Source: Patescibacteria group bacterium (GTDB lineage: Bacteria; Patescibacteriota; Patescibacteriia; Magasanikbacterales; GWA2-37-8). From it: a DNA stretch of 64,000 bases. The notes under the pieces are model-generated. The model was not told the DNA's origin. It worked only from the letters and a program-made list of their open reading frames with translations, and did not search any database. The stretch lies in the NCBI GenBank assembly GCA_004321885.1, contig SCQK01000013.1, positions 1-64,000 on the forward strand, written 5' to 3'. Shown here piece by piece: positions 629-59,352 of the stretch (positions are counted from its first letter, which is position 1; every line of letters begins with the position of its first letter). Made by a program: the position numbers and the translations under genes.

Positions 629-691
629 TCAGCTTGCCATTCCGGTCCCGCCTGCCCGCCTCTGGCGGGAGCCGGAATCCAGGTTCGTCTT

Positions 692-11754: not shown

Positions 11755-12279
11755 ATGTCTTTATTTGATATTTTCCTCCTCATCATCATCGCCGGGTTCG
11801 GACTCTATGGCATGTGGTTCGGACTGGTGCGCGCCGTGGGCCGCCTTATCAGTTTGGTGGTCGGTTTGTATTTGGCCGGCAAATACTACGAACCCATGGC
11901 CAACTGGCTGATGAATTTCACCGGCTGGAAACCCAATTTTTCCAAGGTGCTTGTTTTTATTATCGCCTTTATCATTATTTCCCGGCTGGTAGGGCTGGTA
12001 TTTTGGTTTTTGGAAAAGGTGTTCAGTATTTTTACGCGCCTGCCGGTGATAAAAAGTTTGGACCGGCTTTTGGGTTTGGTTTTTGGTTTGTTGGAAGGAG
12101 CGATAATTCTGGGCGTGATTTTTTATTTCATCGCCCGTTTTCCGGTGAGCAAATGGCTGATGGATCAGCTCGTCGCGTCCGCGGTGGCGCCCTACACTGT
12201 TAAAATCGCGTCGTTTTTATGGCCGCTTCTGCCCGAAGCCCTGCGCGTGCTCCAAAGCGCGGTAAAAGGAATTTTGTGA
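11755..12279 (+). CDS. cvpA: CvpA-family membrane protein (colicin V production protein-like)
   Basis: ATG at 11755 follows the repeat element at 11706-11748. Four TM helices. The upstream part of ORF 11581..12279 overlaps metG and the repeat. Confidence 0.6.
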   Translation: MSLFDIFLLIIIAGFGLYGMWFGLVRAVGRLISLVVGLYLAGKYYEPMANWLMNFTGWKPNFSKVLVFIIAFIIISRLVGLVFWFLEKVFSIFTRLPVIKSLDRLLGLVFGLLEGAIILGVIFYFIARFPVSKWLMDQLVASAVAPYTVKIASFLWPLLPEALRVLQSAVKGIL

Positions 12280-13127
12280 TAGACACTCATTGCCACGTAC
12301 AATTTAAGGCGTTTGCCAAAGACAGCGATGAGGTGATAAAGCGATGCGCCGAGAAGGGCGTTGTTTTAAATGTGGTTGGCACGCAAAAAGACACCAGCGC
12401 TATGGCCGTGAAGTTCGCGGAAAAATACGATAATATTTTCGCCACGGTGGGCTTGCATCCCATTCATACCTGCTCCACCGAAGTTGACGAGGAGGAAATT
12501 ACTTTTAAGTCGCGAGAAGAAGAATTTGATTACGAATACTACAAAAAACTCGCCTCTCATCCGAAAGTTATCGCGATAGGGGAGTGTGGGCTGGAGCTTT
12601 TTCATTTACCAAAAAAAATAGACAAGGATGATTGCCTGAAAACACAAAAGAAAAATTTTATCGCGCAAATTGATTTGGCGCGAGAACTGGATTTGCCGCT
12701 GGTGATTCACGTGCGCGACGCGTACGAAGAGACATTGTCTGTCATTGCGAACGAAGTGAAGCAATCCCATCCGTTAAAGGGCGTCATTCATTGCTACTCG
12801 TCCGACTGGCCGACCGCCCAAAAATTTTTAAACCTTGGATTTTACATCGGTTTCACTTCCATCATCACCTTTCCGCCCCGCAAAACAAACCCCAAGCCGG
12901 ATTTTGACCTGGTGGAAGTGGTAAAAAATTGTCCGCTGGACAAAATTTTGATAGAAACCGACGCGCCCTACCTGGCTCCGCAGGCGTATAGGGGCAAACG
13001 GTGCGAACCGTGGATGGTGGAGGAAGTAGCCAAGAAAATCGCGGAAATAAAGGGTTTAAGCTTCAAAGAAGTGGTTGAAATCAGCGAAAATAACGCAAAA
13101 AAACTTTTCAACAAGCTAAAATCTTGA
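12219..13127 (+). CDS. tatD: TatD-family metal-dependent DNase/hydrolase
   Basis: Motifs 'IDTHCH', 'GECGLE', 'HVRDA', 'ETDAPY'. Start is uncertain: ATG 12219 overlaps cvpA, while GTG 12276 overlaps only the cvpA stop. Confidence 0.8.
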   Translation: MAASARSPARAPKRGKRNFVIDTHCHVQFKAFAKDSDEVIKRCAEKGVVLNVVGTQKDTSAMAVKFAEKYDNIFATVGLHPIHTCSTEVDEEEITFKSREEEFDYEYYKKLASHPKVIAIGECGLELFHLPKKIDKDDCLKTQKKNFIAQIDLARELDLPLVIHVRDAYEETLSVIANEVKQSHPLKGVIHCYSSDWPTAQKFLNLGFYIGFTSIITFPPRKTNPKPDFDLVEVVKNCPLDKILIETDAPYLAPQAYRGKRCEPWMVEEVAKKIAEIKGLSFKEVVEISENNAKKLFNKLKS

Positions 13128-15598: not shown

Positions 15599-15669
15599 TG
15601 TCATTGCGAGGAGCGAAGCGACGAAGCAATCCCATGAGATTGCTTCGACCCTGCGGGTCTCGCAATGAC
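15599..15669. repeat. Full-length copy of the 'TGTCATTGCGAGGAGCGAAGCGACGAAGCAATCC...CTCGCAATGACA' hairpin element (intergenic, atpH-atpA)
   Basis: Outer stem gtcattgcgag/ctcgcaatgac, inner stem gaagcaatc/gattgcttc. Shorter copies sit at 11706-11748, 11455-11480, 17904-17931, 21411-21447, 21679-21712, 21892-21974, 32910-32940, 55979-56027, 58629-58650 and 60107-60164. Confidence 0.7.
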
Positions 15670-17249: not shown

Positions 17250-18209
17250 ATGGCGGTTAACACCAAAGCAATTAAGCGCCGCATCAAATCCGTGGGCAGT
17301 ACGCGCAAGATCACGAAAGCCATGGAGATGGTAGCCGCGGCCAAAATGCGCAAAGCTGTGAACGCGGCTTTGGACACCCGCGCCTATGCCAAACTGGCCT
17401 GGGACTTGCTTGTTGATTTGGCGAAATCGCAAAAGGCAAAGATCCCGTTGTTGGACGTGCGGCCCGTGAAAAAACTTTTAGTGGTGCTTATCACTTCCAA
17501 CCGCGGGTTGTGCGGCAGTTTCAACGCCAATATTATCCGCAAAACCGCCGAGCAATTGAAAAATCCGGCCAACATCAGCCGACAGCGGGTAAAAGGCAAA
17601 CAAGTTGAGCCCGAGCAAAGCATTGAAGTGGATATTATCGGCATCGGCAAAAAAGGCGCGGATTTCGCGCGCAAAACCGGCCATCATTTGGAGGCGTCAT
17701 TTTCCGAATTCAGCGACACGCCCGCCATGGCCGACGCCCTGCCCATCAGCCGGATGATTATCGGCGATTACGAAAACAAAAAGTACGATAAAGTGGTGGT
17801 GGCTTACACTGATTTCAAATCCACCATCGCGCAAATAGCCAAGTTGCGACAAGTACTGCCGATTTCCGAACAGGATTTGGAGAAGATGATGATTGACAGT
17901 GAAGTCATTGCGAGCGAAGCGAAGCAATCCCAAACACAAACGCTGGAACTCTCTGAATACTTATTTGAACCGAACAAACTTGATGTTTTGAAAATAATTT
18001 TACCGCGTCTGGTGGAAGTGCAGATTTTTCAAGCCATGCTGGAATCGGCGGCTAGCGAACACAGCAGTCGCATGCTCGCTATGAGAAACGCCAGCGACGC
18101 GGCCGAGGACATGATTAAAGAATTAAATTTGAATTTTAACAAAGCGCGGCAGGCGGCGATCACGCAGGAAATCGCGGAAATCGCTGGCGGCGCCGCGGCA
18201 TTGGATTAA
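17250..18209 (+). CDS. atpG: F0F1 ATP synthase subunit gamma, carrying an in-frame 'GTCATTGCGAGCGAAGCGAAGCAATCC' element
   Basis: N-terminal 'IKRRIKSVGSTRKITKAMEMVAAAKMRKA' and C-terminal 'ITQEIAEI'. The repeat at 17904-17931 encodes 'EVIASEAKQSQ'. Confidence 0.9.
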   Translation: MAVNTKAIKRRIKSVGSTRKITKAMEMVAAAKMRKAVNAALDTRAYAKLAWDLLVDLAKSQKAKIPLLDVRPVKKLLVVLITSNRGLCGSFNANIIRKTAEQLKNPANISRQRVKGKQVEPEQSIEVDIIGIGKKGADFARKTGHHLEASFSEFSDTPAMADALPISRMIIGDYENKKYDKVVVAYTDFKSTIAQIAKLRQVLPISEQDLEKMMIDSEVIASEAKQSQTQTLELSEYLFEPNKLDVLKIILPRLVEVQIFQAMLESAASEHSSRMLAMRNASDAAEDMIKELNLNFNKARQAAITQEIAEIAGGAAALD

Positions 18210-21210: not shown

Positions 21211-21342
21211 ATGGAAAAATGCGCCAAATGTAGCATGCCGCTGGAAGCCGAGGAGGTCACTTGCGCGTGCAATGACACGCTTTGCGTTCATTGTTGCGAT
21301 TGCGGGTCTGACTGCGGATGCGAATGCGCCCAGAAAAAGTAG
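21211..21342 (+). CDS. Unannotated 43-aa cysteine-rich peptide (11 Cys): metallothionein-like or zinc-ribbon mini-protein
   Basis: My own translation: MEKCAKCSMPLEAEEVTCACNDTLCVHCCDCGSDCGCECAQKK*. Preceded by the repeat-element SD (AGGAGGGGTAATA). A 9-codon uORF (ATG 21205) overlaps its start. Confidence 0.45.
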   Translation: MEKCAKCSMPLEAEEVTCACNDTLCVHCCDCGSDCGCECAQKK

Positions 21343-21344
21343 GT

Positions 21345-22037
21345 ATGAACGCGCGAAAGGTGTATAAGCACCTTTTCAAGAAATACGGACCACAAGGTTG
21401 GTGGCCACTTTGTCATTCCGACCGAGCGAAGCGAGTGGAGGAATCCCTTTTTGAAATAGCAGTCGGAGCGATACTTACCCAAAGCACCGCCTGGCGCAAT
21501 GTGGCCGTGGCGATTGCGAATCTGGACAAAGCCAAAGCCCTCACGCCCAAGGCGATAATAAAAATGCCGAAAGCACGACTCTGTAAGTTGATAAAGCCGG
21601 CCGGATATTTCAATCAAAAATGCAAGAAGTTGAAAATATTTGCCAAATGGCTGATGGAAAATTGCGGCGGCGACGTCCTGTCATTGCGAGGAGCGAAGCG
21701 ACGAAGCAATCCTTTGGAAATCAGGAATAAATTATTGTCTATCTGGGGCATCGGCAAAGAAACCGCTGATTCAATCATTCTTTACGCCCTGAACAAACCG
21801 ATTTTCGTGATTGACGCCTACACTCGCCGTCTCTGCGCAAAGTTTAGCATAAAATTCAAGGAATACGACGAGTATCGCGAGTTTTTTGAAATGTCATTGC
21901 GAGGAGCGCAGCGACGAAGCAACCCCAAACGTTTAAGCAGGGGATTGCTTCGGCCTGATGGCCTCGCAATGACATACCAAGAATACCACGCCCTTATCGT
22001 CGCCTCAGGCAAAGACAAACACAAGTACGTATTATGA
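21345..22037 (+). CDS. HhH-GPD superfamily DNA glycosylase (endonuclease III-like, no Fe-S cluster) carrying three in-frame repeat-element insertions
   Basis: 'YGPQGWWP', HhH 'IWGIGKETADSIILYAL', 'VIDAYTRRL'. Inserts at 21411-21447, 21679-21712 and 21892-21974 encode 'LCHSDRAKRVEES', 'SLRGAKRRSNP' and 'SLRGAQRRSNPKRLSRGLLRPDGLAMT'. Confidence 0.65.
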   Translation: MNARKVYKHLFKKYGPQGWWPLCHSDRAKRVEESLFEIAVGAILTQSTAWRNVAVAIANLDKAKALTPKAIIKMPKARLCKLIKPAGYFNQKCKKLKIFAKWLMENCGGDVLSLRGAKRRSNPLEIRNKLLSIWGIGKETADSIILYALNKPIFVIDAYTRRLCAKFSIKFKEYDEYREFFEMSLRGAQRRSNPKRLSRGLLRPDGLAMTYQEYHALIVASGKDKHKYVL

Positions 22038-24322: not shown

Positions 24323-24796
24323 ATGGCTCAAATTTTTCAAACAGAAAATTTCATTGTTGAGGCGGCTGACTATCCGCACGTTACGCGCAAAGATGGCGGG
24401 CATATTAAAATTTATCCCAAAGTAAGAATTGTTGACCGGACACAATTATCACCCAAGTTAGCCATTGAACTTATGCGTTTAACGATGCTTATTGGCGAAG
24501 CGATGACTGTCGGACTCAATAATAGAGGCATAGATATAGGCAGGATAAACTATCACGATGATGGAAATTGGAGCGTTTTTAAGCCCGAAGGTCCATATCT
24601 GCACATTCACCTGTACGGCCGGGCTAAAAGTGCAAAAATTCAAAAATGGGGAGATGCACTTTATCAGCCGCAACGCGACACAGGATTTTATGAAAATTGT
24701 GAGCCGTTAAATAACGAGGATATTGTCGAAATTAAAAAAGAGATTGAAATTTTGTCGCGACAGAAAAAATATCAACTTACTGAGTGGGGACTTTGA
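24323..24796 (+). CDS. HIT-like superfamily protein with variant H-x-H-x-Y motif, in the AT-rich islet
   Basis: 'GGHIKIYPK' resembles the HIT 'GHxLVIPK' motif. 'PYLHIHLYGR' sits at the HIT histidine-triad position with the third His replaced by Tyr. Confidence 0.4.
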   Translation: MAQIFQTENFIVEAADYPHVTRKDGGHIKIYPKVRIVDRTQLSPKLAIELMRLTMLIGEAMTVGLNNRGIDIGRINYHDDGNWSVFKPEGPYLHIHLYGRAKSAKIQKWGDALYQPQRDTGFYENCEPLNNEDIVEIKKEIEILSRQKKYQLTEWGL

Positions 24797-24804
24797 TAAA
24801 TATT

Positions 24805-27800
24805 ATGGCGGAGCTAAACAAATCGCAAAAATCGGCGGTGGAGTATGTTGGCGGACCGCTACTGATAGTGGCGGGCGCTGGCACGGGCAAAACCACTGTC
24901 ATCACCAAAAAAATCGCCCACCTGATAGAGCAAAACCTGGCCAAGCCCGAGGGAATTTTGGCGTTGGCTTTTAACGACAAAGCGGCCGATGAAATCCAGA
25001 CCCGCGTTGACGCCGAACTGGAGCTGGGCTACGTCGAAACGCATATTTCCACGTTCCACGCTTTTTGCCAAAAACTTTTGGAAACATACGGGCTGGATAT
25101 TGGCATCTCCAATCAGTTCAAAGTACTCACGCAAACAGACGCCTGGATTTTGGTGCGCAAAAATCTGGATAAGTTCAATCTTGATTATTATCGTCCGCTC
25201 GGCAATCCCACGCGCCATATTCACGAACTCATCAAACATTTTTCCAAATGCAAAGACGAACTGATTACTCCGAATGAATATCTGGAATACGCCGAGAACG
25301 TGGAATTAGACAAAGACAACAAAAACACTGGCGAGCGCACGCGTCTGACAGAGGTGGCCAACGCTTATCACGCCTATAATCAGCTGTTGCTGGACAACAA
25401 CGTCTTGGATTTTGGCGATTTGATTTTTTACGCGAACAAACTATTGGCCGAACGGCCGAAAATTTTAGATGGTTTGCGCAAGCAATTCAAATATATTTTG
25501 GTGGATGAGTTTCAGGACGTGAATTACGCGCAGTATGAGCTCGTGCAAATGCTCTCCCACCCCCCCTCCGTCCCCCCCTCAGGCAGGGGGGGAGGACATG
25601 GAGCCCAACTCACGGCGGTAGGGGATGATGACCAGAGTATCTACGCTTTTCGCGGGGCCTCGGTGTCCAATATCTTGCGCTTCAAAGATGATTATCCGAA
25701 GTGCAAAGAAATCGTGCTGACCGAAAACTATCGCTCGGGACAAAAGATATTGGACATCTGTTACAAATCAATTCAAAACAATAATCCTGACCGGTTGGAA
25801 GCGAAATTAAAAATTGATAAAAAGTTGAAAGTGGCTACCCCCCCTTCGCCCCCCCCTTATCAAGGGGGGGAAGTAATCCATATCCACTGCGCCACCTTGG
25901 AGCAGGAGGCGAGCGCGGTGGCCCAAGAAATATCACGGCTTAAAAAAAGCGAGTCCGAAGCGAACTGGGACGATTTCGCGATTTTGGTGCGCGCCAACAG
26001 CCACGCTGATATTTTTGTAAACGCGCTTGCCAATGCCGGCATTCCCTGTGAGTTTTGGGCCGCCAGCGGCTTGTATCATCAGCCCATCGTATTGGATTGC
26101 TTTAATTTTTTCAAACTCATCACCAATTATCACGAATCAACGGCAATTTACCGCCTCCTGCGCCTGCCGTTTGTAAACTTCAAGGAAAACGACTTACAAA
26201 AAATCACGTATAACGCCCACAAAAAAACCGTTTCGTATTACGAGGCGCTTAAACGCGGCGCCGAGTTTGGTTTATCAACCGAAGGCGCCGTAATCGCGGA
26301 TAAAATCATTTCTCTTATTCACGACGGCATGAAATCCGGCCGCTTTGAAAAACCACACCGCGTGCTTTACGACTTTTTGGACAAGAGTGGCTATCTGAAA
26401 TATCTGGCGCACGAAGAAAACGAGGGCAACGCCAATGTTATCCGACAAATCTACCAGCTGACCGACTTTTTTGAGTTTATAAAAAAGTACGAGCAGGCTA
26501 GCCCCGACGCCAACGTTTACGGCCTGATGGAACACATGGAATATCTGCTTGACTCTGGCGAAGAAGGCGCCATGCGCCAACAAAACGATACGCCCGATTC
26601 GGTGAACATTTTTACCGTGCACAAGGCCAAGGGTTTGGAGTTCAAGTATGTTTTTATGGTCAATCTGGTGGAAGACCGTTTTCCCTCGCGCAAAAAATCC
26701 GAGCCTATTGAAATCCCTCTGCCGCTGGTGAAAGAAAAACTGCCCGAGGGAGACAGCCATCTGCAGGAAGAGCGCCGCTTGTTTTACGTGGCGGCTACGC
26801 GCGCCAAAGAGCGCTTGTATTTTACCAGCGCCGACGACTACGGCGGAGCGCGCAAGAAAAAAATCAGCCGCTTTTTGGATGAGTTGGGGTATAAAGCTGG
26901 CTCCATAGTCCCGCAGGGCTATGGAGCCAAGATGCAGTATGTCTCCATAGGATTGCCTGCGGCAACCACTATGGAGCCAGCGAAGGGTGAGTTTGTTTAC
27001 GCCCCGCCCAAGATTTTTTCCTTTTCGCAAATCAAATCGTACAATAATTGTCCGTATCAGTACAAACTCGCCAGCATTATTCACTTACCGCAAAAGCAAA
27101 GTCACTATTTCAGTTTTGGCAACAGCATGCATAACACCTTACTGGAGTTTTACAAGCGGGTACAGGCGTTAAATAACAGCCGGCAGGAAAGTTTGTTCGG
27201 AATTACAAATGGCTCCGCAGGCCGCGCGGCGGGCACTATCCGCCTACGCGGCACTATGGAGCCAACCGTGAACAGTGTAAACAACGAAGTAAAAGCCCCG
27301 CCCTTGGATGAACTTCTGGGAATTTATCAAAAAAATTGGATTGACGAGTGGTATTTGAGCAAAAAACAAAAAGATGAATACTTTAGCGAAGGCAAAAAAA
27401 TGCTGGCCGCTTTTTACGAATCCAATAAGGACAGGTGGACGGTGCCCGTGGCGCTGGAAGGCGCGTTCAAAATCAAAATAGGGGAGTACTTTTTGGCCGG
27501 ACGCATGGACAGGGTGGATAAACTGCCAGACGGTTCGTTGGAAATTATTGATTACAAAACCGGCGAAAGTAAAGAAACGGCCGCGGGCGAAGAAAAAGAG
27601 CAGTTGATGATTTACCAGATGGCGGCCGAGCAGTTGTCACGCTACAAAGAAATTGGCCGCGCCGGCAAACTCACCCTGTATTATTTACGCGATAATTTGC
27701 CGGTGTCTTTTATCGGCGAGGAAAAAGAACTGGAAAAAATAAAAACAAAACTGCTTGGGGTGATGGAAAAAATAATTGCCGGCGACTTTCGCGCCACGCC

Positions 27801-27858
27801 GGAAAAATTTGTCTGCAAAAATTGCCATTTCCGCGATATTTGCGAATTTCGCGTATGA
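24805..27858 (+). CDS. UvrD/PcrA-family SF1 helicase fused to a C-terminal PD-(D/E)xK (Cas4/AddB-like, Cys-cluster) nuclease, with two in-frame GC-rich repeat insertions
   Basis: Walker A 'AGAGTGKTT', 'LVDEFQD', 'GDDDQSIY'. C-terminal 'GRMDRVD...EIIDYKTG' and C...CKNCHFRDIC. Inserts at 25553-25602 ('HPPSVPPSGRGGGHGAQ') and 25838-25880 ('PPSPPPYQGGEV'). Confidence 0.85.
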   Translation: MAELNKSQKSAVEYVGGPLLIVAGAGTGKTTVITKKIAHLIEQNLAKPEGILALAFNDKAADEIQTRVDAELELGYVETHISTFHAFCQKLLETYGLDIGISNQFKVLTQTDAWILVRKNLDKFNLDYYRPLGNPTRHIHELIKHFSKCKDELITPNEYLEYAENVELDKDNKNTGERTRLTEVANAYHAYNQLLLDNNVLDFGDLIFYANKLLAERPKILDGLRKQFKYILVDEFQDVNYAQYELVQMLSHPPSVPPSGRGGGHGAQLTAVGDDDQSIYAFRGASVSNILRFKDDYPKCKEIVLTENYRSGQKILDICYKSIQNNNPDRLEAKLKIDKKLKVATPPSPPPYQGGEVIHIHCATLEQEASAVAQEISRLKKSESEANWDDFAILVRANSHADIFVNALANAGIPCEFWAASGLYHQPIVLDCFNFFKLITNYHESTAIYRLLRLPFVNFKENDLQKITYNAHKKTVSYYEALKRGAEFGLSTEGAVIADKIISLIHDGMKSGRFEKPHRVLYDFLDKSGYLKYLAHEENEGNANVIRQIYQLTDFFEFIKKYEQASPDANVYGLMEHMEYLLDSGEEGAMRQQNDTPDSVNIFTVHKAKGLEFKYVFMVNLVEDRFPSRKKSEPIEIPLPLVKEKLPEGDSHLQEERRLFYVAATRAKERLYFTSADDYGGARKKKISRFLDELGYKAGSIVPQGYGAKMQYVSIGLPAATTMEPAKGEFVYAPPKIFSFSQIKSYNNCPYQYKLASIIHLPQKQSHYFSFGNSMHNTLLEFYKRVQALNNSRQESLFGITNGSAGRAAGTIRLRGTMEPTVNSVNNEVKAPPLDELLGIYQKNWIDEWYLSKKQKDEYFSEGKKMLAAFYESNKDRWTVPVALEGAFKIKIGEYFLAGRMDRVDKLPDGSLEIIDYKTGESKETAAGEEKEQLMIYQMAAEQLSRYKEIGRAGKLTLYYLRDNLPVSFIGEEKELEKIKTKLLGVMEKIIAGDFRATPEKFVCKNCHFRDICEFRV

Positions 27859-32882: not shown

Positions 32883-32947
32883 CTACTTCATTAAACAACA
32901 AAATAACATTGTCATTCTCCCGATTAAGTCGGGGGAATCCAGCATAT

Positions 32948-52912: not shown

Positions 52913-55141
52913 ATGCTCAAAAAAATCGCTTGCCTTTTTTTGATTACGACCTGGATCCCAGTTTTCGCTGGAATGACAGTGTCCTTTTCCCCTGCCCTCG
53001 CCCAAACGGAATTTAATCCGCATTTTATTATCTCCGACGAAGAAATGCAGACCCTGGCGAACTGGACCCGCGACGACGTGCAAAAATTTCTGGACGGCAA
53101 GGGCAGTTATCTGCGCGCCTTTTCCACCGAAGATGTGTCCGGCGCCGTCAAACCAGCGGCCGATATTATCTACGACGCGGCGCGCGCCTACACCATCAAT
53201 CCAAAATATCTGCTCGTTACTTTACAAAAAGAGCAGTCGCTGATTACCGACGACGCGCCCAGCCAAAAACAGCTTGATTGGGCCACGGGCTACGCGGTCT
53301 GCGATTCCTGCGACCGCGGCGACCCGGCCGTGGCCAAACACAAGGGCTTTGGCAAGCAGGTAGACGACGCGGCCGGCATCATCCGCTGGTATTACGACAA
53401 TCGCGACCGCGGCATTGTCAAAAAAAAAGACCAGGCCGTCAGCATAGACAACCAATCGGTCATCCCGCAAAGCTGGGCCACGGCTTTTTTGTACACCTAT
53501 ACCCCGCACTTGCACGGCAATAAAAATTTTTGGAAAATCTGGCAGACCTGGTTTGCGCAAAACTACCCCAACGGCACCCTGCTGGTCGGCGAAACCACGG
53601 GCGACACCTATCTGATTCAAAACAACACTAAACGCAAATTCAAAAATAAATCCACCCTGCTGTCGCGCGCCGACCCGGAAATGATAATCACCGTGCCCGA
53701 AAGCGAACTCTCCAACTACGCCACTGGTCCGGAAATTTCTTTCCCAAATTTTTCGCTCTTGCGCTCTCCGGCGAGCGCCTATTACCTGCTTGACTACGAC
53801 ACCATCCGCCCGTTTGCCGGCGAAGAAGTCATCCGCTATCACGGCTACAATCCGCAAGAAATCATAGACGTTTCCGAAGCGGACCTGACCGGCCTGACTC
53901 TCGGTACCACCATTTACGCCACGTCCACTCCGGTGCAGGGCGTGGTCTATCAAATCACAGATCTAAAAAACGCCCTTTACATGCTCAAAGACGGCACGCT
54001 CTATCCGATTATAGATAAAAAAATGGTGGAGGCGAATTACAAAAATTTGAAACTGGAAAAAAAGAAGCTAACGGACATAAAAAATTATCCGGTCGCCAAC
54101 CAGCCTTTGCAGTTCAAAGACGGCACCCTTATCAGAATAAAAGACAGCGAAACGATTTACGTGATAGAAAACGGCAAAAAGCGCCGCCTGGCCGATGAAG
54201 ACACTTTCCTGGCCATGGGCTATAAATACGCCAACGTCATATCGGTGGAATTGCTGACTGCTTTGAATATCTTTGACGGCGAGCCGATATTCATCAACGG
54301 CAGTCTGCTTTCGGCCAAAGATAAATTTCTGGGCGACAACCAACAGGCTGTCATTGACAATTACGGCGCCAAGCTCCCCTCATATCTGGTGGCCGAGTAT
54401 CCCAGCGGCCGCATCTTATCCGGCAAAAATATAGACGCCAGGCGCCCCATTGCCTCGCTCACCAAAGCCATGGTCGCTTACGAAGCCATATACGAAAATT
54501 TAGCGCCCGCGAAAATCACGGCCTACAGCGCCAAGAAATACCGCTCCGAAGGCTATGCCCTAAAAGTGCGTGACGGAGCCAAATTCAAAAATGCCGACCT
54601 GCTGAGCGCCGCGCTCATCGGCTCTTACAACAATATTGCCAAAGCCGTCGTGGGCGCCACGGGCCTGGACGAAGACGCGTTTTTGGCCGCGCTCAATCGC
54701 CGTCTTAGCGACTGGGGGGCGGATAACACGAAAATCGCCGACCTCACCGGCTTGGATGAAAAAAACTTTTCCACGGCCCGCGACCTGCTTCGCGTTTACA
54801 CGAAAGTTTTGAAAAACGAAACCATCGCCAAGTCCCTGGGCACTAAAAAATTTATCCTGCGCAATGTCTCGGGCAAATCGTACGGTTCGCTCAAATACAC
54901 AGTGCAAAATCGCAATAAATTATTTTTCCAAAACAATAAAAATTATAAAATTATCGCCAGCAAAACCGGTTATACGGACGAGGCCGGCGCCGTGCTTTTT
55001 ATGGTAATAGAATCCAAAAAAACCAAAAAGAAATACACCATCATCACTCTCGGCGACAAAAATTATAATTATCGGTTCAAAGAGCCGGACAAAATCGCCA
55101 GCTGGATTTCTTCCGACAACGCGAATTTAGCCAGCAATTAA
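52913..55141 (+). CDS. Secreted protein with C-terminal D-alanyl-D-alanine carboxypeptidase (PBP5/S11-like) domain and large N-terminal domain of unknown function
   Basis: Signal peptide. Motifs 'SLTK' (SxxK), 'SYNN' (SxN), 'KTGYT' (KTG) in the last ~270 aa. Confidence 0.7.
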   Translation: MLKKIACLFLITTWIPVFAGMTVSFSPALAQTEFNPHFIISDEEMQTLANWTRDDVQKFLDGKGSYLRAFSTEDVSGAVKPAADIIYDAARAYTINPKYLLVTLQKEQSLITDDAPSQKQLDWATGYAVCDSCDRGDPAVAKHKGFGKQVDDAAGIIRWYYDNRDRGIVKKKDQAVSIDNQSVIPQSWATAFLYTYTPHLHGNKNFWKIWQTWFAQNYPNGTLLVGETTGDTYLIQNNTKRKFKNKSTLLSRADPEMIITVPESELSNYATGPEISFPNFSLLRSPASAYYLLDYDTIRPFAGEEVIRYHGYNPQEIIDVSEADLTGLTLGTTIYATSTPVQGVVYQITDLKNALYMLKDGTLYPIIDKKMVEANYKNLKLEKKKLTDIKNYPVANQPLQFKDGTLIRIKDSETIYVIENGKKRRLADEDTFLAMGYKYANVISVELLTALNIFDGEPIFINGSLLSAKDKFLGDNQQAVIDNYGAKLPSYLVAEYPSGRILSGKNIDARRPIASLTKAMVAYEAIYENLAPAKITAYSAKKYRSEGYALKVRDGAKFKNADLLSAALIGSYNNIAKAVVGATGLDEDAFLAALNRRLSDWGADNTKIADLTGLDEKNFSTARDLLRVYTKVLKNETIAKSLGTKKFILRNVSGKSYGSLKYTVQNRNKLFFQNNKNYKIIASKTGYTDEAGAVLFMVIESKKTKKKYTIITLGDKNYNYRFKEPDKIASWISSDNANLASN

Positions 55142-55180
55142 TTAGCGAACTGGAAATGCTGTTCGCTTTAAGAAAATTTT

Positions 55181-55969
55181 ATGCTTGTATTTGCCTGTAT
55201 CACGCCTCACCCCCCGCTGCTTTTGCCCACCATCGGAAAAAAGGTCGCCAAAAAAGTGGAAAAAACAAAAAGGGCCATGGAAAAATTGGAAGAGGATTTG
55301 TATTTGTCCAAGCCCGACATCCTGATTGTAATTTCTCCGCACGGCAGCTGTATGAACGACGCCTTCACGCTGAATCTGGCGCCCGAATACGAAACCGACT
55401 TGTCCGAATTCGGCGATATCACCACCAAGCTGAAATTCAACGGCGAGCAGGAACTGACGTCTCTGCTGCGCGAAGCGAGCAAAGAACAGGCTTTCGCCAC
55501 CGCGGTTATTAGCGAGCCAAAAATTGACCACGGCGCGGCCGTGCCGCTGTATTATCTGGCCGCGCATCTTCCCAAAATTCCGATTATCCCGGTCGGTTTT
55601 TGCGAACTGGACCCAAAACATCATCTTGATTTTGGCAAGATGCTGCAAGAGCAGATAAGCGAGCTCAACAAACGGGTGGCCGTGGTCGCTTCGGGCGATT
55701 TGTCGCACGCCCTTACCACCGACGCCCCGGCCGGATACAGCGAAGCCGGGGCCGGGTTTGACGCCAAAATTCAAGAACTGCTCGCGGCCGGCAACACGGC
55801 CGGCATGCTACAGCTGGACAAAAAATTAGTGGCCGACGCGGCCGAATGCGGCTTCCGCTCCTTTCTCATTTTGATGGGCGCTTTACGCGGCGTAAATTTC
55901 AACTATAAAGCTTACTCGTACGAAGCGCCGTTTGGCGTGGGCTATTTGGTCGCCAATTTCGCGATGTAA
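55181..55969 (+). CDS. Class III extradiol dioxygenase-like (LigB/DODA family) protein
   Basis: 'ISPHGS', 'DHGAAVPL', 'ASGDLSH' match LigB-family metal-ligand positions. Confidence 0.5.
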   Translation: MLVFACITPHPPLLLPTIGKKVAKKVEKTKRAMEKLEEDLYLSKPDILIVISPHGSCMNDAFTLNLAPEYETDLSEFGDITTKLKFNGEQELTSLLREASKEQAFATAVISEPKIDHGAAVPLYYLAAHLPKIPIIPVGFCELDPKHHLDFGKMLQEQISELNKRVAVVASGDLSHALTTDAPAGYSEAGAGFDAKIQELLAAGNTAGMLQLDKKLVADAAECGFRSFLILMGALRGVNFNYKAYSYEAPFGVGYLVANFAM

Positions 55970-56032
55970 TTCGTTCGCTGTCATTCTAGCCCCTGCCTAC
56001 CGGCAGGCAGGCGCGAGCAGGAATCCCACACT

Positions 56033-57922
56033 ATGCTTCTGCAAATTATCCCCGCACGGAGAATGCCTTTTTCTCTTCCGTTTTTGGATTACGCGGCTCC
56101 CGCTGAACTGGAAGCGCGCGTCAAAATCGGCCAGCTGGTGAAAATTCCGTTTCGCTCGCGCGAAGAATTTGGCATTATTAAATCAATCGGCGGCGATGCG
56201 CCGCCAAAAAAAGTCAGGCCCATTTTGGAAATTTTTTATGATACGCCTCTTCTGTCGCAGGCGCAATTAAATTTTTTAGAAGAGATATCGGCTTTTTACG
56301 GCACGCCCTTGTCTTTTCTGTTAAAAACCAATCTGCCGCCGCTCTCGGAAAAAAAATTAAAAAAAGAACTGGACAAAAAAAACTTCAGGTCCGGCGCGGC
56401 GGTCAGTAAAAAACCTAAAAAGCCAGGGGTGTTTTATTACGCCGACAAAGGAGAAAAACAAAAACTATTTATTGACGCGCCGGCTAAACGAGGACAAACT
56501 TTAATTATAGCGCCCGAATTGGAGCAAATTACCGAAATATGGAATCTTTTGTCCGAAGAGCGGCGCGCCAAGTGCGCGGCCATTTCAGGCCGACTAAGCG
56601 AAAAACAATTTTTCGCCGTCTGGATGGATATTTTTTTTGGACGCAAAAACATCGTCATCGGCACGCGCCGGGCACTGTTTTTGCCCTGGCGAAACTTGAC
56701 GCGCGTAATCATTGACGACGAAGCCAATGAAAGCCATAAAAGCTGGGACATGGCCCCGCGCTTTCACGCCAAAGACGCGGCCCTGTTTCTGGCCGCCAAG
56801 CACGGCGCGGCTCTCCAAATTATGTGCCACACGCCCTCGGTGGAAACGTATTTTTTCGCGCAAAAGAACGTTTACAAAACAAAAGACGCGCCCAAAACGT
56901 TCGCTGACTCTGCTACCATCGTGGATATGTGCGGGGAACGTAGGGCCGGCAATTACACGTTTATCAGCCAATACTTGCGCGACAAAATCACGGCTCTAAA
57001 CGGAGACGCCTTTATTTTTCTCAACCGCAAAGGCGCCGCCGCGGCCGTGGGTTGCCGCGATTGCGGCAATGTCATAAAATGTCCGTCTTGCGGCCGCTCG
57101 CTGGTGTATCACGAAACCGATAAATCATTGCGTTGCCATTTTTGTAAAACCCTGAGCCGCATGCCCCCGTCTTGCGCGGTTTGCCGTGGCGTAAATATGG
57201 CCTTATACGGCATTGGCACCCAGCTCGCCGAAAACACCCTGCGCAAGCTCGCCCCTGACAAGCGAGTTATCCGCATTGATTCGGACGACGGCGAGCTTAG
57301 CGAGTTAAAAGCGCCGGGAAATAAAATTATCATCGGCACGCAACTGGCCTGGAATAAAATTGACTGGTCAGCGCTCAAACTGGCCGCTTTTTTGGACGCT
57401 GACTCGTCTCTTTTTATTCCCGAATTTAAGATAGATGAAAATGTTTGGTATCTACTGCGAGACGCGCAGTTTCGTTTGGGCTGTCATTCCGGCCTTGTGC
57501 CGGAATCCACAATCAATCCGGAATTAATCATTCAAACAGGCCATCCGGAATATCCTGTTTTTTCCGGGCTGGCCAAGCCGGCCAATTTTTATGAACAGCA
57601 GATAAAAATCAGACAGCTCTTGGGCTTTCCGCCTTTTAATTTTTTGCTTAAAATATACAACAGCGAGCCGGGCGAAGCGCTGGCCAAAAGCCAGGCCGAG
57701 GCTTTTTTGGCCGAACTGCGCGCCTTGACAAGAGGCATGCCGCGGGTTAATATAACCGGCCCGCTGGCGGCGCCGTTTCGCCGCGGCAAAGATTACTCGC
57801 AAATAATTTTGCTAAAAATCGGGTTTGCCAACTACAAGCGCGACACGGCCAAAATTTCGTCTTTGGCGGCAACGCGCGGCTGGAAAGTAGACCCAAATCC
57901 AAATACCTTATTAGCCCTATGA
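56033..57922 (+). CDS. priA: PriA-like primosomal protein N' with degenerate helicase motifs
   Basis: N-terminal 3'-DNA-binding domain 'LDYAAPAELEARVKIGQLVKIPF'. Four-CxxC zinc module 'CPSCGRS...CHFCKT...CAVCRG'. Where Walker A would sit it reads 'DAPAKRGQT' (no GK[TS]) and motif II reads 'IIDDEANESH' (not DExH). Confidence 0.75.
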   Translation: MLLQIIPARRMPFSLPFLDYAAPAELEARVKIGQLVKIPFRSREEFGIIKSIGGDAPPKKVRPILEIFYDTPLLSQAQLNFLEEISAFYGTPLSFLLKTNLPPLSEKKLKKELDKKNFRSGAAVSKKPKKPGVFYYADKGEKQKLFIDAPAKRGQTLIIAPELEQITEIWNLLSEERRAKCAAISGRLSEKQFFAVWMDIFFGRKNIVIGTRRALFLPWRNLTRVIIDDEANESHKSWDMAPRFHAKDAALFLAAKHGAALQIMCHTPSVETYFFAQKNVYKTKDAPKTFADSATIVDMCGERRAGNYTFISQYLRDKITALNGDAFIFLNRKGAAAAVGCRDCGNVIKCPSCGRSLVYHETDKSLRCHFCKTLSRMPPSCAVCRGVNMALYGIGTQLAENTLRKLAPDKRVIRIDSDDGELSELKAPGNKIIIGTQLAWNKIDWSALKLAAFLDADSSLFIPEFKIDENVWYLLRDAQFRLGCHSGLVPESTINPELIIQTGHPEYPVFSGLAKPANFYEQQIKIRQLLGFPPFNFLLKIYNSEPGEALAKSQAEAFLAELRALTRGMPRVNITGPLAAPFRRGKDYSQIILLKIGFANYKRDTAKISSLAATRGWKVDPNPNTLLAL

Positions 57923-58413
57923 TTCTACCCATCTTAACCGAACCAAATCCCCTTTTGCACAAACAGGCAAAGCCGATTGCGGATGCGCGCATAATCTCTG
58001 CCGAGATGAAAAAACTCGCCACCGACCTTATTGAAACCATGCGCGCCAAAGACGGAGTGGGATTGGCCGCCACCCAAGCGGGACGCCTGGAACAAATTTG
58101 CGTAGTGGCGGTTGATTTAGAAAAACAGGAAAAACGCGAAATCGTTTTAATTAATCCGCGCTGGGAAAAAATCGGCCTAAGGAAAGAAACTGACGATGAA
58201 GGCTGTTTGTCCGTGCCTGAAATTTTCGGCAAAGTGAAGCGCTATAAAAAAATCCGCGTGTTCGCGAAAAATTTGCTCGGCAATAATTTGGAATTTGTCG
58301 CCGAGGACCTGCTCGCGCGAATCATCCAGCACGAGGTGGATCATTTGAACGGAATTTTATTCACAGAGAAAGCCAAGGGTTTGCATAAAATTGACAAAAG
58401 CGCCGGTAAATAG
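57919..58413 (+). CDS. def: Peptide deformylase
   Basis: 'GVGLAATQAG', 'EGCLSVP', 'HEVDHLNG'. Confidence 0.9.
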   Translation: MILPILTEPNPLLHKQAKPIADARIISAEMKKLATDLIETMRAKDGVGLAATQAGRLEQICVVAVDLEKQEKREIVLINPRWEKIGLRKETDDEGCLSVPEIFGKVKRYKKIRVFAKNLLGNNLEFVAEDLLARIIQHEVDHLNGILFTEKAKGLHKIDKSAGK

Positions 58414-58425
58414 CGCGACGAATTT

Positions 58426-59352
58426 ATGACTATTAGCACAATATTTTTTGGAACACATAATTTTGCGGCGAAAATTTTGGCAGAGCTTATCAAAAACGGC
58501 TCTTTTGACATTACACTGGCAGTCACCCAGCCGGACAGACCGGCGGGAAGAAAACAAGACCTGGAAATTCCGGCCGTGAAACTTTTAGCCGAAAAAAACA
58601 ATATTCCGGTCGCCCAACCGGCCGGTTTGTCATTGCGAGGAGTAATCCCTTTTCCTGATTTCTATGACCTGAACATCCTCTGCCAATACGGAAACATAAT
58701 CACCAAAGAAATTTTAGACAAATCAAAATACGGTTCAATCAATGTCCACCCTTCGCTATTGCCAAGATACCGCGGGGCCTCACCCATCCAATCCGCGCTC
58801 GTAAATGGCGAAACCGAAACCGGCGTTTCCATAATTTTGATGGATGAGGAGCTTGACCATGGCCCGATTTTGGCGCAAAAAAAAATGAACATTGGCGATG
58901 ATGATAATTTTGTTTCTTTGAGCGCGAAATTGTCGTATCTATCCGCCCCTCTTTTGGTAAATACGGCCCTTGATTTTGTAAACGGAAAAATTACTCCCGG
59001 GCCACAAAACCACGACCAAGCGACTTTTTGCAAACAACTCTCGCGCGAGGATGGTAAAATTGATTTTAATAAATCCGCCAAAGAAATTTACAATCAGTGG
59101 CGCGGCCTCGCGCCGTGGCCCGGGGTTTGGGCAAGCTGGGAAAACAAACGTCTCAAATTTATTAATATCAGCCCCCTTCCCCTTTATAAGGGGGATGTGG
59201 GGAGGGGGTATGTAAGGGGGCACAAACTCATCATCGCCTGCGCCCAAGGCGCTATTGAAATTTTAGAACTCCAACTTGAAGGAAAAAAGCCCATGGTCGC
59301 GGCCGCGTTTATAAACGGCTATGGCAAAATAAACGGCGCTATTTTACGCTAA
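58426..59352 (+). CDS. fmt: Methionyl-tRNA formyltransferase, with two in-frame repeat insertions
   Basis: 'IFFGTHNFA', 'NVHPSLLPRYRGASPIQ'. Inserts: 58629-58650 ('SLRGVIP') and 59171-59220 ('SPLPLYKGDVGRGYVRGH'). Confidence 0.85.
   Translation: MTISTIFFGTHNFAAKILAELIKNGSFDITLAVTQPDRPAGRKQDLEIPAVKLLAEKNNIPVAQPAGLSLRGVIPFPDFYDLNILCQYGNIITKEILDKSKYGSINVHPSLLPRYRGASPIQSALVNGETETGVSIILMDEELDHGPILAQKKMNIGDDDNFVSLSAKLSYLSAPLLVNTALDFVNGKITPGPQNHDQATFCKQLSREDGKIDFNKSAKEIYNQWRGLAPWPGVWASWENKRLKFINISPLPLYKGDVGRGYVRGHKLIIACAQGAIEILELQLEGKKPMVAAAFINGYGKINGAILR

What the first reader, a model, noticed from the sequence alone, without database searches (positions are those of the whole stretch)
56033..57922. 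PriA homologue with degenerate Walker A and DExH motifs
The N-terminal 3'-DNA-binding domain, the arrangement of the helicase lobes and the four-CxxC zinc module are clearly PriA. Where GxxxxGK[TS] should be, the sequence reads '...YYADKGEKQKLFIDAPAKRGQTLIIAPE'. Motif II is 'DDEAN' rather than DE(E/A)H. This implies a PriA that binds forks and recruits replisome components but cannot hydrolyse ATP. A GTCATT-family hairpin (55979-56027) lies in its 5' leader.
Basis: partly seen in the sequence, partly recalled or inferred. Interest (0 to 1): 0.55.

Follow-up and report, generated by a model that had tools for sequence, protein, structure and literature searches.

The report
Motor-less PriA replication-restart protein
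This gene encodes a real, conserved PriA replication-restart protein that has lost every ATP-binding motif of its helicase engine but keeps its DNA-fork-recognition and zinc modules; such "pseudohelicase" PriAs are already known from Deinococcus, and here the same loss is shown to be widespread, though not universal, in the tiny-genome Patescibacteria (CPR).

Summary
ORF 56033..57922 (+, 629 aa) is an orthologous PriA: it passes the NCBIfam TIGR00595 cut-off, has a high-confidence PriA fold and sits in priA-def-fmt synteny. It has no P-loop. Motif II reads DDEA, not DEEH, and motifs III, V and VI are also degenerate. The winged-helix domain and the helix before the P-loop are absent; a Lys-rich linker replaces them.

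No frame hides a Walker A, and five other ATPases in the window keep theirs. The loss is shared by all 120 closest homologues, 40 Magasanikbacteria-type genomes, and Sungbacteria, Veblenbacteria, Peribacteria and Paceibacteria versions. It is not CPR-wide: short relatives, including a Torokbacteria PriA at a related locus, keep all motifs, and intermediates exist.

Retained and conserved are the 3'-end pocket, motif Ia, the aromatic-rich loop, motif IV, eight zinc cysteines and the C-terminal domain. The best reading is a fork-recognising scaffold without a motor, like D. radiodurans PriA and E. coli PriA K230R.

The "leader hairpin" is a recently inserted palindromic repeat. A second copy sits in-frame in the motif VI relic and adds 10 residues found in no relative.

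Verdict: new member of a known kind, moderate interest.

The parts
56033..57922 (+). priA ORF, 629 aa (motif-less, winged-helix-less PriA)
   Evidence: (TIGR00595 256.6 bits > 230.35).
56033..56344 (+). 3'-DNA-binding domain (residues 1-104). Pocket residues D19, Y20 and R62 (K in >=90% of the family) correspond to E. coli D17, Y18 and K61.
   Evidence: Pfam PF17764; alignments; residue roles from PMC5778457.
56345..56425 (+). Lys-rich linker (residues 105-131, SEKKLKKELDKKNFRSGAAVSKKPKKP). It stands where the winged-helix domain and the helix preceding the P-loop are in E. coli PriA (about Ec 105-220).
   Evidence: lower pLDDT of 74-79 in this block.
56426..56473 (+). Walker A relic (residues 132-147, GVFYYADKGEKQKLFI). 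Strand beta1 and helix alpha1 are kept; the P-loop is reduced to about 3 residues, with no GK[TS].
   Evidence: secondary structure E132-135 / H139-148.
56495..56524 (+). Motif Ia (QTLIIAPELE), conserved.
   Evidence: LxLVPE is conserved in canonical and CPR sets; Q155 and P161 invariant.
56708..56728 (+). Motif II relic (IIDDEAN, against E. coli VIDEEHD).
   Evidence: The first acidic position varies (D/T/E) in relatives.
56726..56773 (+). Aromatic-rich loop (NESHKSWDMAPRFHAK). K236, R243 and F244 correspond to E. coli K328, R334 and Y335.
   Evidence: ARL definition from PMC5175346.
56822..56836 (+). Motif III relic (MCHTP, against GSATP).
57053..57184 (+). Cysteine-rich region, four CxxC (two predicted zinc sites).
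   Evidence: (cysteines invariant or >=90%).
57326..57370 (+). Motif V relic (IIIGTQLAWNKIDWS). GTQ is kept and the KG is lost.
57452..57478 (+). Motif VI relic (LLRDAQFRL, against QVAGRAGR). The arginine finger is lost.
57479..57508 (+). In-frame 30-nt insertion encoding GCHSGLVPES. It contains the palindromic repeat GTCATTCCGGCCTTGTGCCGGAATC (57483-57507).
   Evidence: Present in 1 of 120 family members; repeat match; pLDDT dip to 64.
57578..57919 (+). C-terminal domain (residues 516-629) with conserved YPPF and a C-terminal WKxDPNP motif.
   Evidence: Pfam PriA_C is weak (19.2 bits); alignments.
55980..56025 (+). Palindromic repeat element (GTCATTCT...GGAATC) filling the LigB-priA spacer.
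   Evidence: The spacer is 63 nt here against a median of 6.5 nt in 36 relatives. No promoter or terminator match and no Rfam family.
55181..55969 (+). Upstream LigB/Memo-like gene, a conserved neighbour.
   Evidence: synteny in 40 of 46 CPR loci; also next to the intact Torokbacteria priA.
57919..58413 (+). def (peptide deformylase). Its start overlaps the priA stop (ATGA).
58426..59352 (+). fmt (methionyl-tRNA formyltransferase).

Best explanation
This is the orthologous PriA of a Magasanikbacteria-type Patescibacterium (CPR). It has become a pseudohelicase.

The two RecA-like lobes persist as a folded DNA-binding body, but the ATP site has been dismantled. The P-loop is excised, the adenine-side helix and the winged-helix domain are gone, DEEH has become DDEA, the SAT of motif III is lost, and the motif VI arginines are lost. 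The protein therefore cannot bind or hydrolyse ATP at the canonical site, and cannot translocate or unwind.

It most likely still does the structural half of PriA's job:
- It lays the lagging-strand template across the helicase-core surface (motif Ia, the aromatic-rich loop, motif IV, GTQ).
- It uses the zinc module and C-terminal domain as a platform to bring in the replicative helicase DnaB, directly or through an unidentified adaptor.

Shown here: the anatomy, the fold, which elements are lost and which are under constraint, orthology by synteny, and the lineage distribution. Inferred: absence of ATPase activity, fork binding, and partner recruitment.
For: Identity as PriA:
- TIGR00595 scores above its cut-off.
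- PDB PriA matches at E=1.9e-52.
- The AF2 model has pLDDT 90.3 and pTM 0.90.
- The best Foldseek hits are PriA 8fak_H (E=4.6e-43, TM 0.75), then the engineered winged-helix-deletion E. coli PriA 6dcr.

Loss of ATPase motifs:
- Alignments to E. coli and 30 canonical PriAs show it.
- 0 of 120 homologues carry a G-x4-GK[TS] Walker A.
- No Walker A exists in any frame, and control ATPases are intact.

Not a pseudogene or an artefact:
- There are 35 invariant and 83 nearly invariant columns across 75 sequences of 41-53% identity.
- PBP5-LigB-PriA-Def-Fmt-Wzy synteny holds in about 40 independent assemblies.
- The priA stop overlaps the def start.

Selective retention of DNA and partner elements: see the motif table, with residue roles from PMC5778457 and PMC5175346.

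Descent from an active helicase at the same locus:
- Torokbacteria P0345 has GSGKT/DEEH/GRTGR in a LigB/Memo-AMMECR1-PriA-Fmt locus.
- Intermediate P0438 (no P-loop, DEAH kept) sits in the identical LigB-PriA-Def-Fmt-Wzy locus and nests in the Magasanikbacteria clade (93% NJ bootstrap).

Functional precedent:
- E. coli PriA K230R lacks ATPase and helicase activity yet supports restart through PriB-DnaT (PMC5778457).
- D. radiodurans PriA lacks ATPase and helicase activity, binds fork DNA and binds DnaB (PMC4504706).
Against: - No biochemical data exist for any CPR PriA.
- Only 64 kb of the genome is visible, so a second, canonical PriA or a compensating helicase elsewhere cannot be excluded.
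- The partners are unknown; I did not search this window or any CPR genome for PriB, DnaT or DnaD.
- A residue I recall as lining the E. coli/Klebsiella SSB-tail pocket is not conserved (E. coli W83 aligns with E84). That recollection was not checked against a source, so SSB coupling may differ.
- D229, E230 and N232 of the motif II relic remain >=90% conserved in the Magasanikbacteria clade, and their role is unexplained.
- Progressive decay in Paceibacteria (one zinc site and the 3'BD Asp lost) shows that constraint on this protein can relax further in CPR.
Confidence: 0.72

Rival explanations
1. The gene is decaying. PriA function is being lost in these reduced genomes, and the ORF is a slowly eroding remnant with little or no function.
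For: - Degeneration is graded across CPR, from intact to intermediates to motif-less to Paceibacteria forms that have also lost one zinc site and the 3'BD Asp.
- This copy tolerates a 10-residue repeat insertion.
Against: - Full-length intact ORFs occur in hundreds of independent assemblies at 30-50% identity. Strong column conservation is concentrated in the DNA-binding and zinc elements.
- Synteny and an overlapping stop/start with the essential def gene are conserved.
- A neutral remnant would not stay open and alignable at this divergence.
Confidence: 0.07
2. The protein is still an NTPase or translocase, using a non-canonical or second nucleotide site or residues supplied in trans by a partner.
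For: [quoted passage not shown]
- D229/E230/N232 are conserved in the Magasanikbacteria clade.
Against: - The P-loop, the motif VI arginine finger, motif III and the preceding helix are all gone.
- The Walker B aspartate position varies (D/T/E) among close relatives.
- In other CPR clades motif II is not conserved at all.
- A single K230R change already abolishes E. coli PriA ATPase.
Confidence: 0.05
3. The protein has been repurposed. It keeps the PriA fold but now serves another DNA transaction, for example fork protection, origin-independent initiation, or a role linked to the def-fmt operon, rather than DnaB reloading.
For: - Loss of the winged helix, of the motor and possibly of the SSB pocket changes the interaction surface.
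- The tight operon with def-fmt is conserved.
Against: - The priA-def-fmt order also accompanies motif-intact relatives: PriA-Fmt in Torokbacteria, and def-fmt about 4 kb downstream of P0376. I recall the same order in many other bacteria (own knowledge). It therefore reflects ancestry, not a new function.
- The 3'-end pocket, the feature most specific to restart, is conserved.
Confidence: 0.12
4. It is a sequencing, assembly or gene-calling artefact: a frameshift or a wrong start hides the Walker A.
For: None found.
Against: - No GK[TS] occurs in any frame within the gene.
- The start matches the family N-terminus (MxxxxIPARRMP).
- The same architecture is found in 120 homologues and more than 40 independent genome assemblies.
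- Other ATPases in the window are intact.
Confidence: 0.01

Closest known systems
Deinococcus radiodurans PriA pseudohelicase (Lopper, Boone & Morrow 2015, PMC4504706)
   Same: - It is a PriA orthologue whose Walker A and B motifs no longer match consensus.
- It is proposed to keep fork recognition and replisome recruitment without ATPase or helicase activity.
- The organism lacks recognisable PriB and DnaT.
   Different: - In Deinococcus-Thermus the P-loop is still present with K->R. Here the P-loop is excised, motifs III, V and VI are also degenerate, and the winged-helix domain is absent.
- Origin is probably independent: this protein nests among short, motif-intact CPR-type PriAs. No Deinococcus sequence was included in the tree.
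- The Deinococcus protein was characterised biochemically; this one was not.
E. coli PriA K230R (priA300) and K230A/D variants
   Same: These are ATPase- and helicase-dead PriAs that still assemble primosomes and support restart (PMC5778457). They are the mechanistic model for a motor-less PriA.
   Different: - They are engineered single substitutions in a full-length protein with the WH domain.
- They depend on PriB-DnaT, for which no counterpart is known in CPR (own knowledge, not tested).
E. coli PriA winged-helix-deletion protein (PDB 6dcr)
   Same: It is the second-best structural match (E=3.3e-40, TM 0.69). The domain composition is the same: 3'BD + helicase lobes + CRR + CTD, without WH.
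   Different: It is an engineered deletion and keeps all ATPase motifs.
Short, WH-less but motif-intact PriAs (Candidatus Torokbacteria P0345; unnamed P0372-P0436; also L051, L054, L058, L076)
   Same: - The architecture is the same short one, about 650-680 aa.
- The Torokbacteria gene sits in a related LigB/Memo...PriA-Fmt locus.
- They form one NJ clade with the query's family (78% bootstrap).
   Different: They keep GSGKT, DEEH, SAT, KG and GRxGR, and they hit Pfam DEAD/ResIII/Helicase_C.
Motif-less PriAs of Actinomycetota (Rubrobacter cluster P0180-P0184), and UniProt's 'Probable replication restart protein PriA' label
   Same: - They lack motifs I, II and VI while keeping the 3'BD and the cysteines.
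- UniRef already names a Sungbacteria relative 'Probable replication restart protein PriA'. From memory, UniProt uses this wording for PriAs without detectable helicase domains.
   Different: - They are longer (about 730-750 aa).
- They form a separate NJ clade (87% bootstrap) that joined the CPR motif-less set in only 25 of 100 replicates.

Membership tests
PriA (primosomal protein N' / replication restart protein) | N-terminal 3'-DNA-binding domain with the 3'-end pocket (E. coli D17, Y18, K61) | tested here: met
   PF17764 scores 51 bits against a 22.7 cut-off. D19, Y20 and R62 (K in >=90% of the family) align to the pocket residues.
PriA (primosomal protein N' / replication restart protein) | Whole-protein match to the curated equivalog model | tested here: met
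   TIGR00595 scores 256.6 bits against a 230.35 cut-off. The PRK05580 sub-models score far below their cut-offs.
PriA (primosomal protein N' / replication restart protein) | Two RecA-like lobes with an inserted Cys-rich zinc module (4 x CxxC) and a C-terminal domain, in PriA topology | tested here: met
   - AF2 model pLDDT 90.3.
- Foldseek top nine hits are all PriA, TM up to 0.75.
- Eight cysteines are invariant or nearly so.
PriA (primosomal protein N' / replication restart protein) | Winged-helix domain between the 3'BD and helicase lobe 1 | tested here: not met
   Absent; a 27-residue basic linker stands in its place. The feature is not universal: motif-intact PriAs with Walker A at residues about 150-166 also lack it.
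PriA (primosomal protein N' / replication restart protein) | Conserved genomic position (priA-def-fmt) | tested here: met
PriA (primosomal protein N' / replication restart protein) | Loads the replicative helicase at abandoned forks | not testable with these tools
   Needs biochemistry or genetics.
Active SF2 DNA helicase | Walker A GxxxxGK[TS] (motif I) | tested here: not met
   Absent in the protein, in all six frames, and in 120/120 homologues.
Active SF2 DNA helicase | Motif II DExH | tested here: not met
   It reads DDEA here, and the first acidic position varies in relatives.
Active SF2 DNA helicase | Motif VI QxxGRxGR arginine finger, and motif III SAT | tested here: not met
   RDAQFRL and HTP stand in their places.
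PriA pseudohelicase (Deinococcus-type concept) | PriA orthologue lacking the catalytic residues of motifs I and II | tested here: met
   The degeneration is more extreme than the K->R described for Deinococcus-Thermus.
PriA pseudohelicase (Deinococcus-type concept) | No ATPase or helicase activity in vitro; fork and ssDNA binding retained; binds DnaB | not testable with these tools
   Only conservation of the DNA-contacting elements could be shown.
PriA pseudohelicase (Deinococcus-type concept) | Common descent with the Deinococcus-Thermus proteins | not tested
   No Deinococcus sequence was in the trees. The query's family nests among motif-intact short PriAs, which argues for an independent loss.

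The most novel reading that the evidence does not exclude
PriA has been turned into a pseudoenzyme stepwise, and probably repeatedly, inside the Candidate Phyla Radiation. This leaves a natural series at one conserved locus:
- active short helicase (Torokbacteria-type);
- P-loop lost but DExH kept (P0438-type);
- all ATP motifs lost (Magasanikbacteria, Sungbacteria, Veblenbacteria, Peribacteria);
- one zinc site and the 3'-end Asp also lost (Paceibacteria).

If this is right, replication restart in a large share of bacterial diversity runs without a PriA motor, and the minimal indispensable PriA is a fork-recognition and loading scaffold. That would contradict the field's working statement that PriA helicase activity is conserved 'except in Deinococcus'.
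Probability: 0.5. Interest if true: 0.55.

Novelty: new member of a known kind. Interest (0 to 1): 0.4.

Why it matters
[quoted passage not shown] These data show that whole Patescibacterial lineages carry PriAs with no ATP site at all, including the very abundant Paceibacteria and the Magasanikbacteria clade of this window. Sister lineages keep an intact helicase at a related locus.

This gives a natural dissection of which PriA parts are indispensable: the 3'-end pocket, the core DNA surface, the zinc module and the CTD. It also gives a compact 629-aa scaffold for structural work. And it raises a concrete question about how DnaB is reloaded in ultra-small genomes without PriB/DnaT or a PriA motor.

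The result is incremental, not conceptually new, because the pseudohelicase idea and the K230R genetics already exist.

Tried and rejected
- **Hidden Walker A:** a six-frame scan of 55000-58500 found no GK[TS] inside the gene, so an upstream frame or alternative start is rejected.
- **Assembly-quality artefact:** rejected. Five other P-loop ATPases in the window are intact, and the architecture recurs in independent assemblies.
- **Leader hairpin as a conserved regulatory element:** rejected. Relatives have a median 6.5-nt spacer. There is no promoter or terminator match at the hairpin and no Rfam family in the whole window. The fold z-score is only -1.97.
- **CPR-wide ancestral loss:** this was my working idea. 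It was rejected when the exhaustive search found 13 short motif-intact relatives, including a Torokbacteria PriA.
- **First NJ bootstrap:** unreliable because a distance cap produced NaNs. It was redone. These NJ trees are rough and open to long-branch attraction among degenerate sequences.
- **AFDB fold search:** it was meant to give UniProt names and organisms, but the library was unavailable.
- **Literature:** searches for CPR/Patescibacteria + PriA and Actinobacteria + PriA found no description of motif-less PriAs in these groups. A search for in-frame palindromic repeats in CPR found nothing relevant.
- **Organism labels:** labels in the genome collection are inconsistent. Many Magasanikbacteria-type loci are titled 'uncultured Gammaproteobacteria'. 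L055 is titled Saccharibacteria, but NCBI calls the identical protein Sungbacteria. Taxon statements therefore rest on the subset with CPR names.
Full report
**Observation.** ORF 56033..57922 (+) encodes 629 aa with an ATG start and no internal stop.
- Pfam finds the PriA 3'-DNA-binding domain above threshold. The PriA zinc ribbon and C-terminal domain fall just below threshold. There is no DEAD/ResIII/Helicase_C hit.
- NCBIfam TIGR00595 (priA equivalog) scores 256.6 bits against a cut-off of 230.35.
- Against the PDB the best match is Klebsiella/E. coli PriA (E=1.9e-52). The alignment comes in two pieces: query 11-104 to Kp 24-118, and query 151-593 to Kp 258-708. About 140 residues of the reference, covering the winged-helix domain, the first helix of lobe 1 and the P-loop, correspond to about 47 residues here.

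**Alignment with canonical PriA.** I used MAFFT with E. coli PriA (taken from NC_000913) and with 30 canonical PriAs from Bacteroidota, Bacillota, Pseudomonadota and others.
- Elements lost:
  - Motif I: GVTGSGKT aligns with YADKGEKQ. Strand beta1 and helix alpha1 remain in the AF2 model at 132-135 and 139-148, and the loop between them is about 3 residues.
  - Motif II: DEEH has become DDEA.
  - Motif III: SAT has become HT.
  - Motif V: the KG is lost.
  - Motif VI: QVAGRAGR has become RDAQFRL.
- Elements kept:
  - The 3'BD pocket is kept (E. coli D17/Y18/K61 correspond to D19/Y20/R62, K in the family).
  - Motif Ia (LxxxPE), the GTRxALFLPW block and motif IV (FLNR[KR]G) are kept.
  - The aromatic-rich loop is kept (E. 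coli K328/R334/Y335 correspond to K236/R243/F244; loop defined in PMC5175346).
  - The four CxxC pairs, the GTQ of motif V, the LPEF/YK..E block and the YPPF of the CTD are kept.
- Residue roles come from PMC5778457.

- No GK[TS] exists in any of the six frames inside the gene.
- The AddA-like helicase-nuclease, ClpB, an ABC transporter, the ATP synthase alpha subunit and BipA in the same window all have normal P-loops.
- The N-terminus matches the family consensus, so the start is right.

**Structure.** An AlphaFold2 model built on 75 relatives has mean pLDDT 90.3 and pTM 0.90.
- Lower confidence is confined to the basic linker (blocks 74-79) and residues 481-490 (64).
- The nine best Foldseek PDB hits are all PriA. 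The first is 8fak_H (E=4.6e-43, TMq 0.75).
- The second is 6dcr, the engineered E. coli PriA lacking its winged-helix domain. That structure has the same domain set this protein has naturally.

**Do relatives share the loss?** Yes, widely.
- All 120 listed homologues (41-53% identity, about 615-635 aa) lack a G-x4-GK[TS] Walker A. Those with source names are called Magasanikbacteria, Parcubacteria or Patescibacteria. None has a precomputed helicase Pfam domain.
- A scan of GTDB species genomes returned 80 loci. The 40 Magasanikbacteria-type PriAs (L002-L041) all lack motifs I, II and VI. So do loci labelled Veblenbacteria and Peribacteria, and a Sungbacteria-type locus.
- 30 canonical full-length PriAs in that scan keep Walker A and motif VI, and nearly all match the DExH pattern too.
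- A profile of the non-Magasanikbacteria versions found a Sungbacteria family (16 clusters) and a very divergent group of about 630 aa.
- That divergent group is named Paceibacterota/Pacebacteria where names exist. It is motif-less in 117 of 117 members. It has additionally lost one zinc site and the 3'BD aspartate.
- Even these proteins lie immediately upstream of def-fmt.

**The loss is not CPR-wide.** An exhaustive HMMER search of 1.84 billion 50%-identity representatives used a broad profile.
- It found 12,298 proteins at E<=1e-30.
- Of the best 150, 129 are motif-less, 13 are short (648-737 aa) with all three motifs intact, and 8 are intermediates.
- One essentially intact form (EVTGSGKT, DEEH, QVSGRTGR) is from Candidatus Torokbacteria. 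It sits in a RadicalSAM-LigB/Memo-AMMECR1-PriA-Fmt locus.
- Intermediate P0438 has no P-loop but keeps DEAH. It sits in exactly the window's LigB-PriA-Def-Fmt-Wzy arrangement and groups with the Magasanikbacteria clade (93% NJ bootstrap).
- All short forms make one clade against outgroups (78%). The motif-less and intermediate forms nest inside the intact short ones, but with weak support (33%).
- The most economical reading is that the CPR ancestor had a short, winged-helix-less but active PriA. ATP-site decay then began within CPR, with the P-loop and motif VI going before motif II. These are rough NJ trees and are open to long-branch artefacts.

**Orthology and selection.**
- The order PBP5-LigB-PriA-Def-Fmt-Wzy is found in 39-41 of 46 CPR loci.
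- The priA stop overlaps the def start (ATGA).
- Across 75 sequences of 41-53% identity there are 35 invariant and 83 nearly invariant columns.
- This excludes a pseudogene or an artefact.

**Mechanism.** The canonical ATP site no longer exists. A single K230R change already abolishes E. coli PriA ATPase, helicase and translocase activity (PMC5778457). I therefore infer no ATP hydrolysis and no unwinding.
- I therefore infer a fork-recognising loading scaffold.
- Two precedents support this. E. coli priA300 cells are nearly wild type and the K230R protein assembles primosomes. D. radiodurans PriA has no ATPase or helicase activity, binds ssDNA and forks, and binds DnaB directly in an organism without PriB or DnaT (PMC4504706).
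- The conserved Lys-rich linker (PLxKRKLKK...KP) may substitute for the winged helix in duplex contact. This is speculation.
- What replaces unwinding of an annealed nascent lagging strand is unknown. An AddA-like helicase-nuclease is present in the window.

**The hairpin.** The 46-nt element GTCATTCT...GGAATC at 55980-56025 is real.
- It occupies most of a 63-nt LigB-priA spacer. That spacer has a median length of 6.5 nt in 36 relatives.
- One relative (L003) carries a related hairpin at the same place.
- The window holds at least 12 copies of GTCATT[CG]C...G[CG]AATC palindromes.
- One copy (57483-57507) lies within a 30-nt in-frame insertion (57479-57508). The insertion adds GCHSGLVPES directly after the motif VI relic. 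No other family member among 120 has residues there, and the model is least confident there.
- Tolerance of an insertion at the former arginine-finger loop is consistent with that loop having no remaining catalytic role.
- The leader copy is therefore a mobile-repeat insertion and not a priA regulator. Its right arm happens to place AGGA 10 nt before the ATG, which may serve as a ribosome-binding site. This was not tested.

**Comparison with what is known.**
- Pseudohelicase PriA is a published concept for Deinococcus-Thermus (PMC4504706).
- In the library I could search, no paper describes it for CPR or Patescibacteria. The 2017 review names Deinococcus as the only exception.
- Databases already call these proteins primosomal protein N'. 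UniRef labels a Sungbacteria relative 'Probable replication restart protein PriA'. From memory, this is UniProt's wording for PriAs without detectable helicase domains.
- Motif-less PriAs also occur in a Rubrobacter/Actinomycetota cluster, which forms a separate clade.
- Another occurs in one Rikenellaceae-labelled MAG, which groups with a canonical Alistipes PriA.
- The loss has therefore happened several times.

**Verdict.** I file the protein as a new member of a known kind, at the strongly degenerate end of that kind. The added value is the lineage-level picture and the natural decay series. Interest is 0.4.

Noticed in passing
window 636-679, 11456-11479, 12741-12766, 15600-15631, 15638-15669(-), 17904-17929, 21412-21445, 21680-21711, 21943-21973(-), 32911-32939, 55980-56025, 57483-57507: A dispersed family of short palindromic repeats, GTCATT[CG]C...G[CG]AATC. 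Several copies lie in-frame inside housekeeping ORFs: MetRS 10161..11702 aa 432-440 'SFPRKRES'; ORF 12219..13127 'VIANEVKQS'; ORF 17250..18209 'VIASEAKQS'; and PriA. From memory this behaviour resembles Rickettsia palindromic elements. Only the PriA copy was verified as an insertion relative to homologues.
   Followed up: partly
window 21318-22037: A 239-aa ORF contains three copies of the palindromic repeat (two on +, one on -). It may be a spurious ORF made of a repeat cluster rather than a gene.
   Followed up: no
L003:3874-4000: A relative has a 127-nt LigB-priA spacer carrying a related hairpin (GTCATCCCGAATGAGCCGTAGCGACGAGGGATC) at the same position as the window's element. This suggests repeated insertion into this spacer.
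   Followed up: no
L074:3245-5473: A MAG labelled Rikenellaceae encodes a 743-aa PriA. It keeps a winged-helix-length N-terminal region but lacks motifs I, II and VI. It groups with the canonical Alistipes PriA L051 (69% NJ bootstrap), so it is a probable independent pseudohelicase origin in Bacteroidota.
   Followed up: partly
P0180-P0184, P0187-P0200 (Rubrobacter / Actinomycetota): PriA homologues of about 730-750 aa have five CxxC and no Walker A, DExH or motif VI, and no helicase Pfam hits. They form a clade separate from the CPR motif-less set.
   Followed up: partly
P0179, P0201-P0317 (Paceibacteria-type); loci L082-L084: This is a hyper-degenerate PriA of about 630 aa. It usually has no Pfam hit, only two CxxC, Ser in place of the 3'BD Asp, and TTPSHAF in place of GTRSALF. 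It is still encoded directly upstream of def-fmt.
   Followed up: partly
window 24784-27858 (+): An AddA-like protein of 1024 aa (UvrD helicase + PD-(D/E)XK nuclease) has an intact P-loop. It is a candidate for the end-processing or unwinding functions that a motor-less PriA cannot provide.
   Followed up: no
window 55181-55969 and L087:2297-4933: The LigB/Memo-like gene upstream of priA is a conserved neighbour. In the Torokbacteria locus it sits between a radical-SAM gene and AMMECR1, which is the AmmeMemoRadiSam trio. The window's locus shows only the LigB/Memo member next to priA.
   Followed up: no
Genome contigs record titles of L003-L006, L013, L016-L018 and others; L055: Many loci with Magasanikbacteria-type synteny and PriA are titled 'uncultured Gammaproteobacteria' (TPA assemblies). 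L055 is titled Saccharibacteria, while NCBI names the identical protein Sungbacteria. These are probably taxonomic mislabels in public records.
   Followed up: no
P0010 and P0022 (homologues), region aligned to window residues about 115-150: Two relatives carry private insertions in the linker and Walker A relic region ('LGRGRGGLAWGLPTIYNDIQPTPGLRAFPAQ' and 'CRFCLGKIEHPRFRCE'). These may be further repeat-derived insertions in a permissive part of the protein.
   Followed up: no
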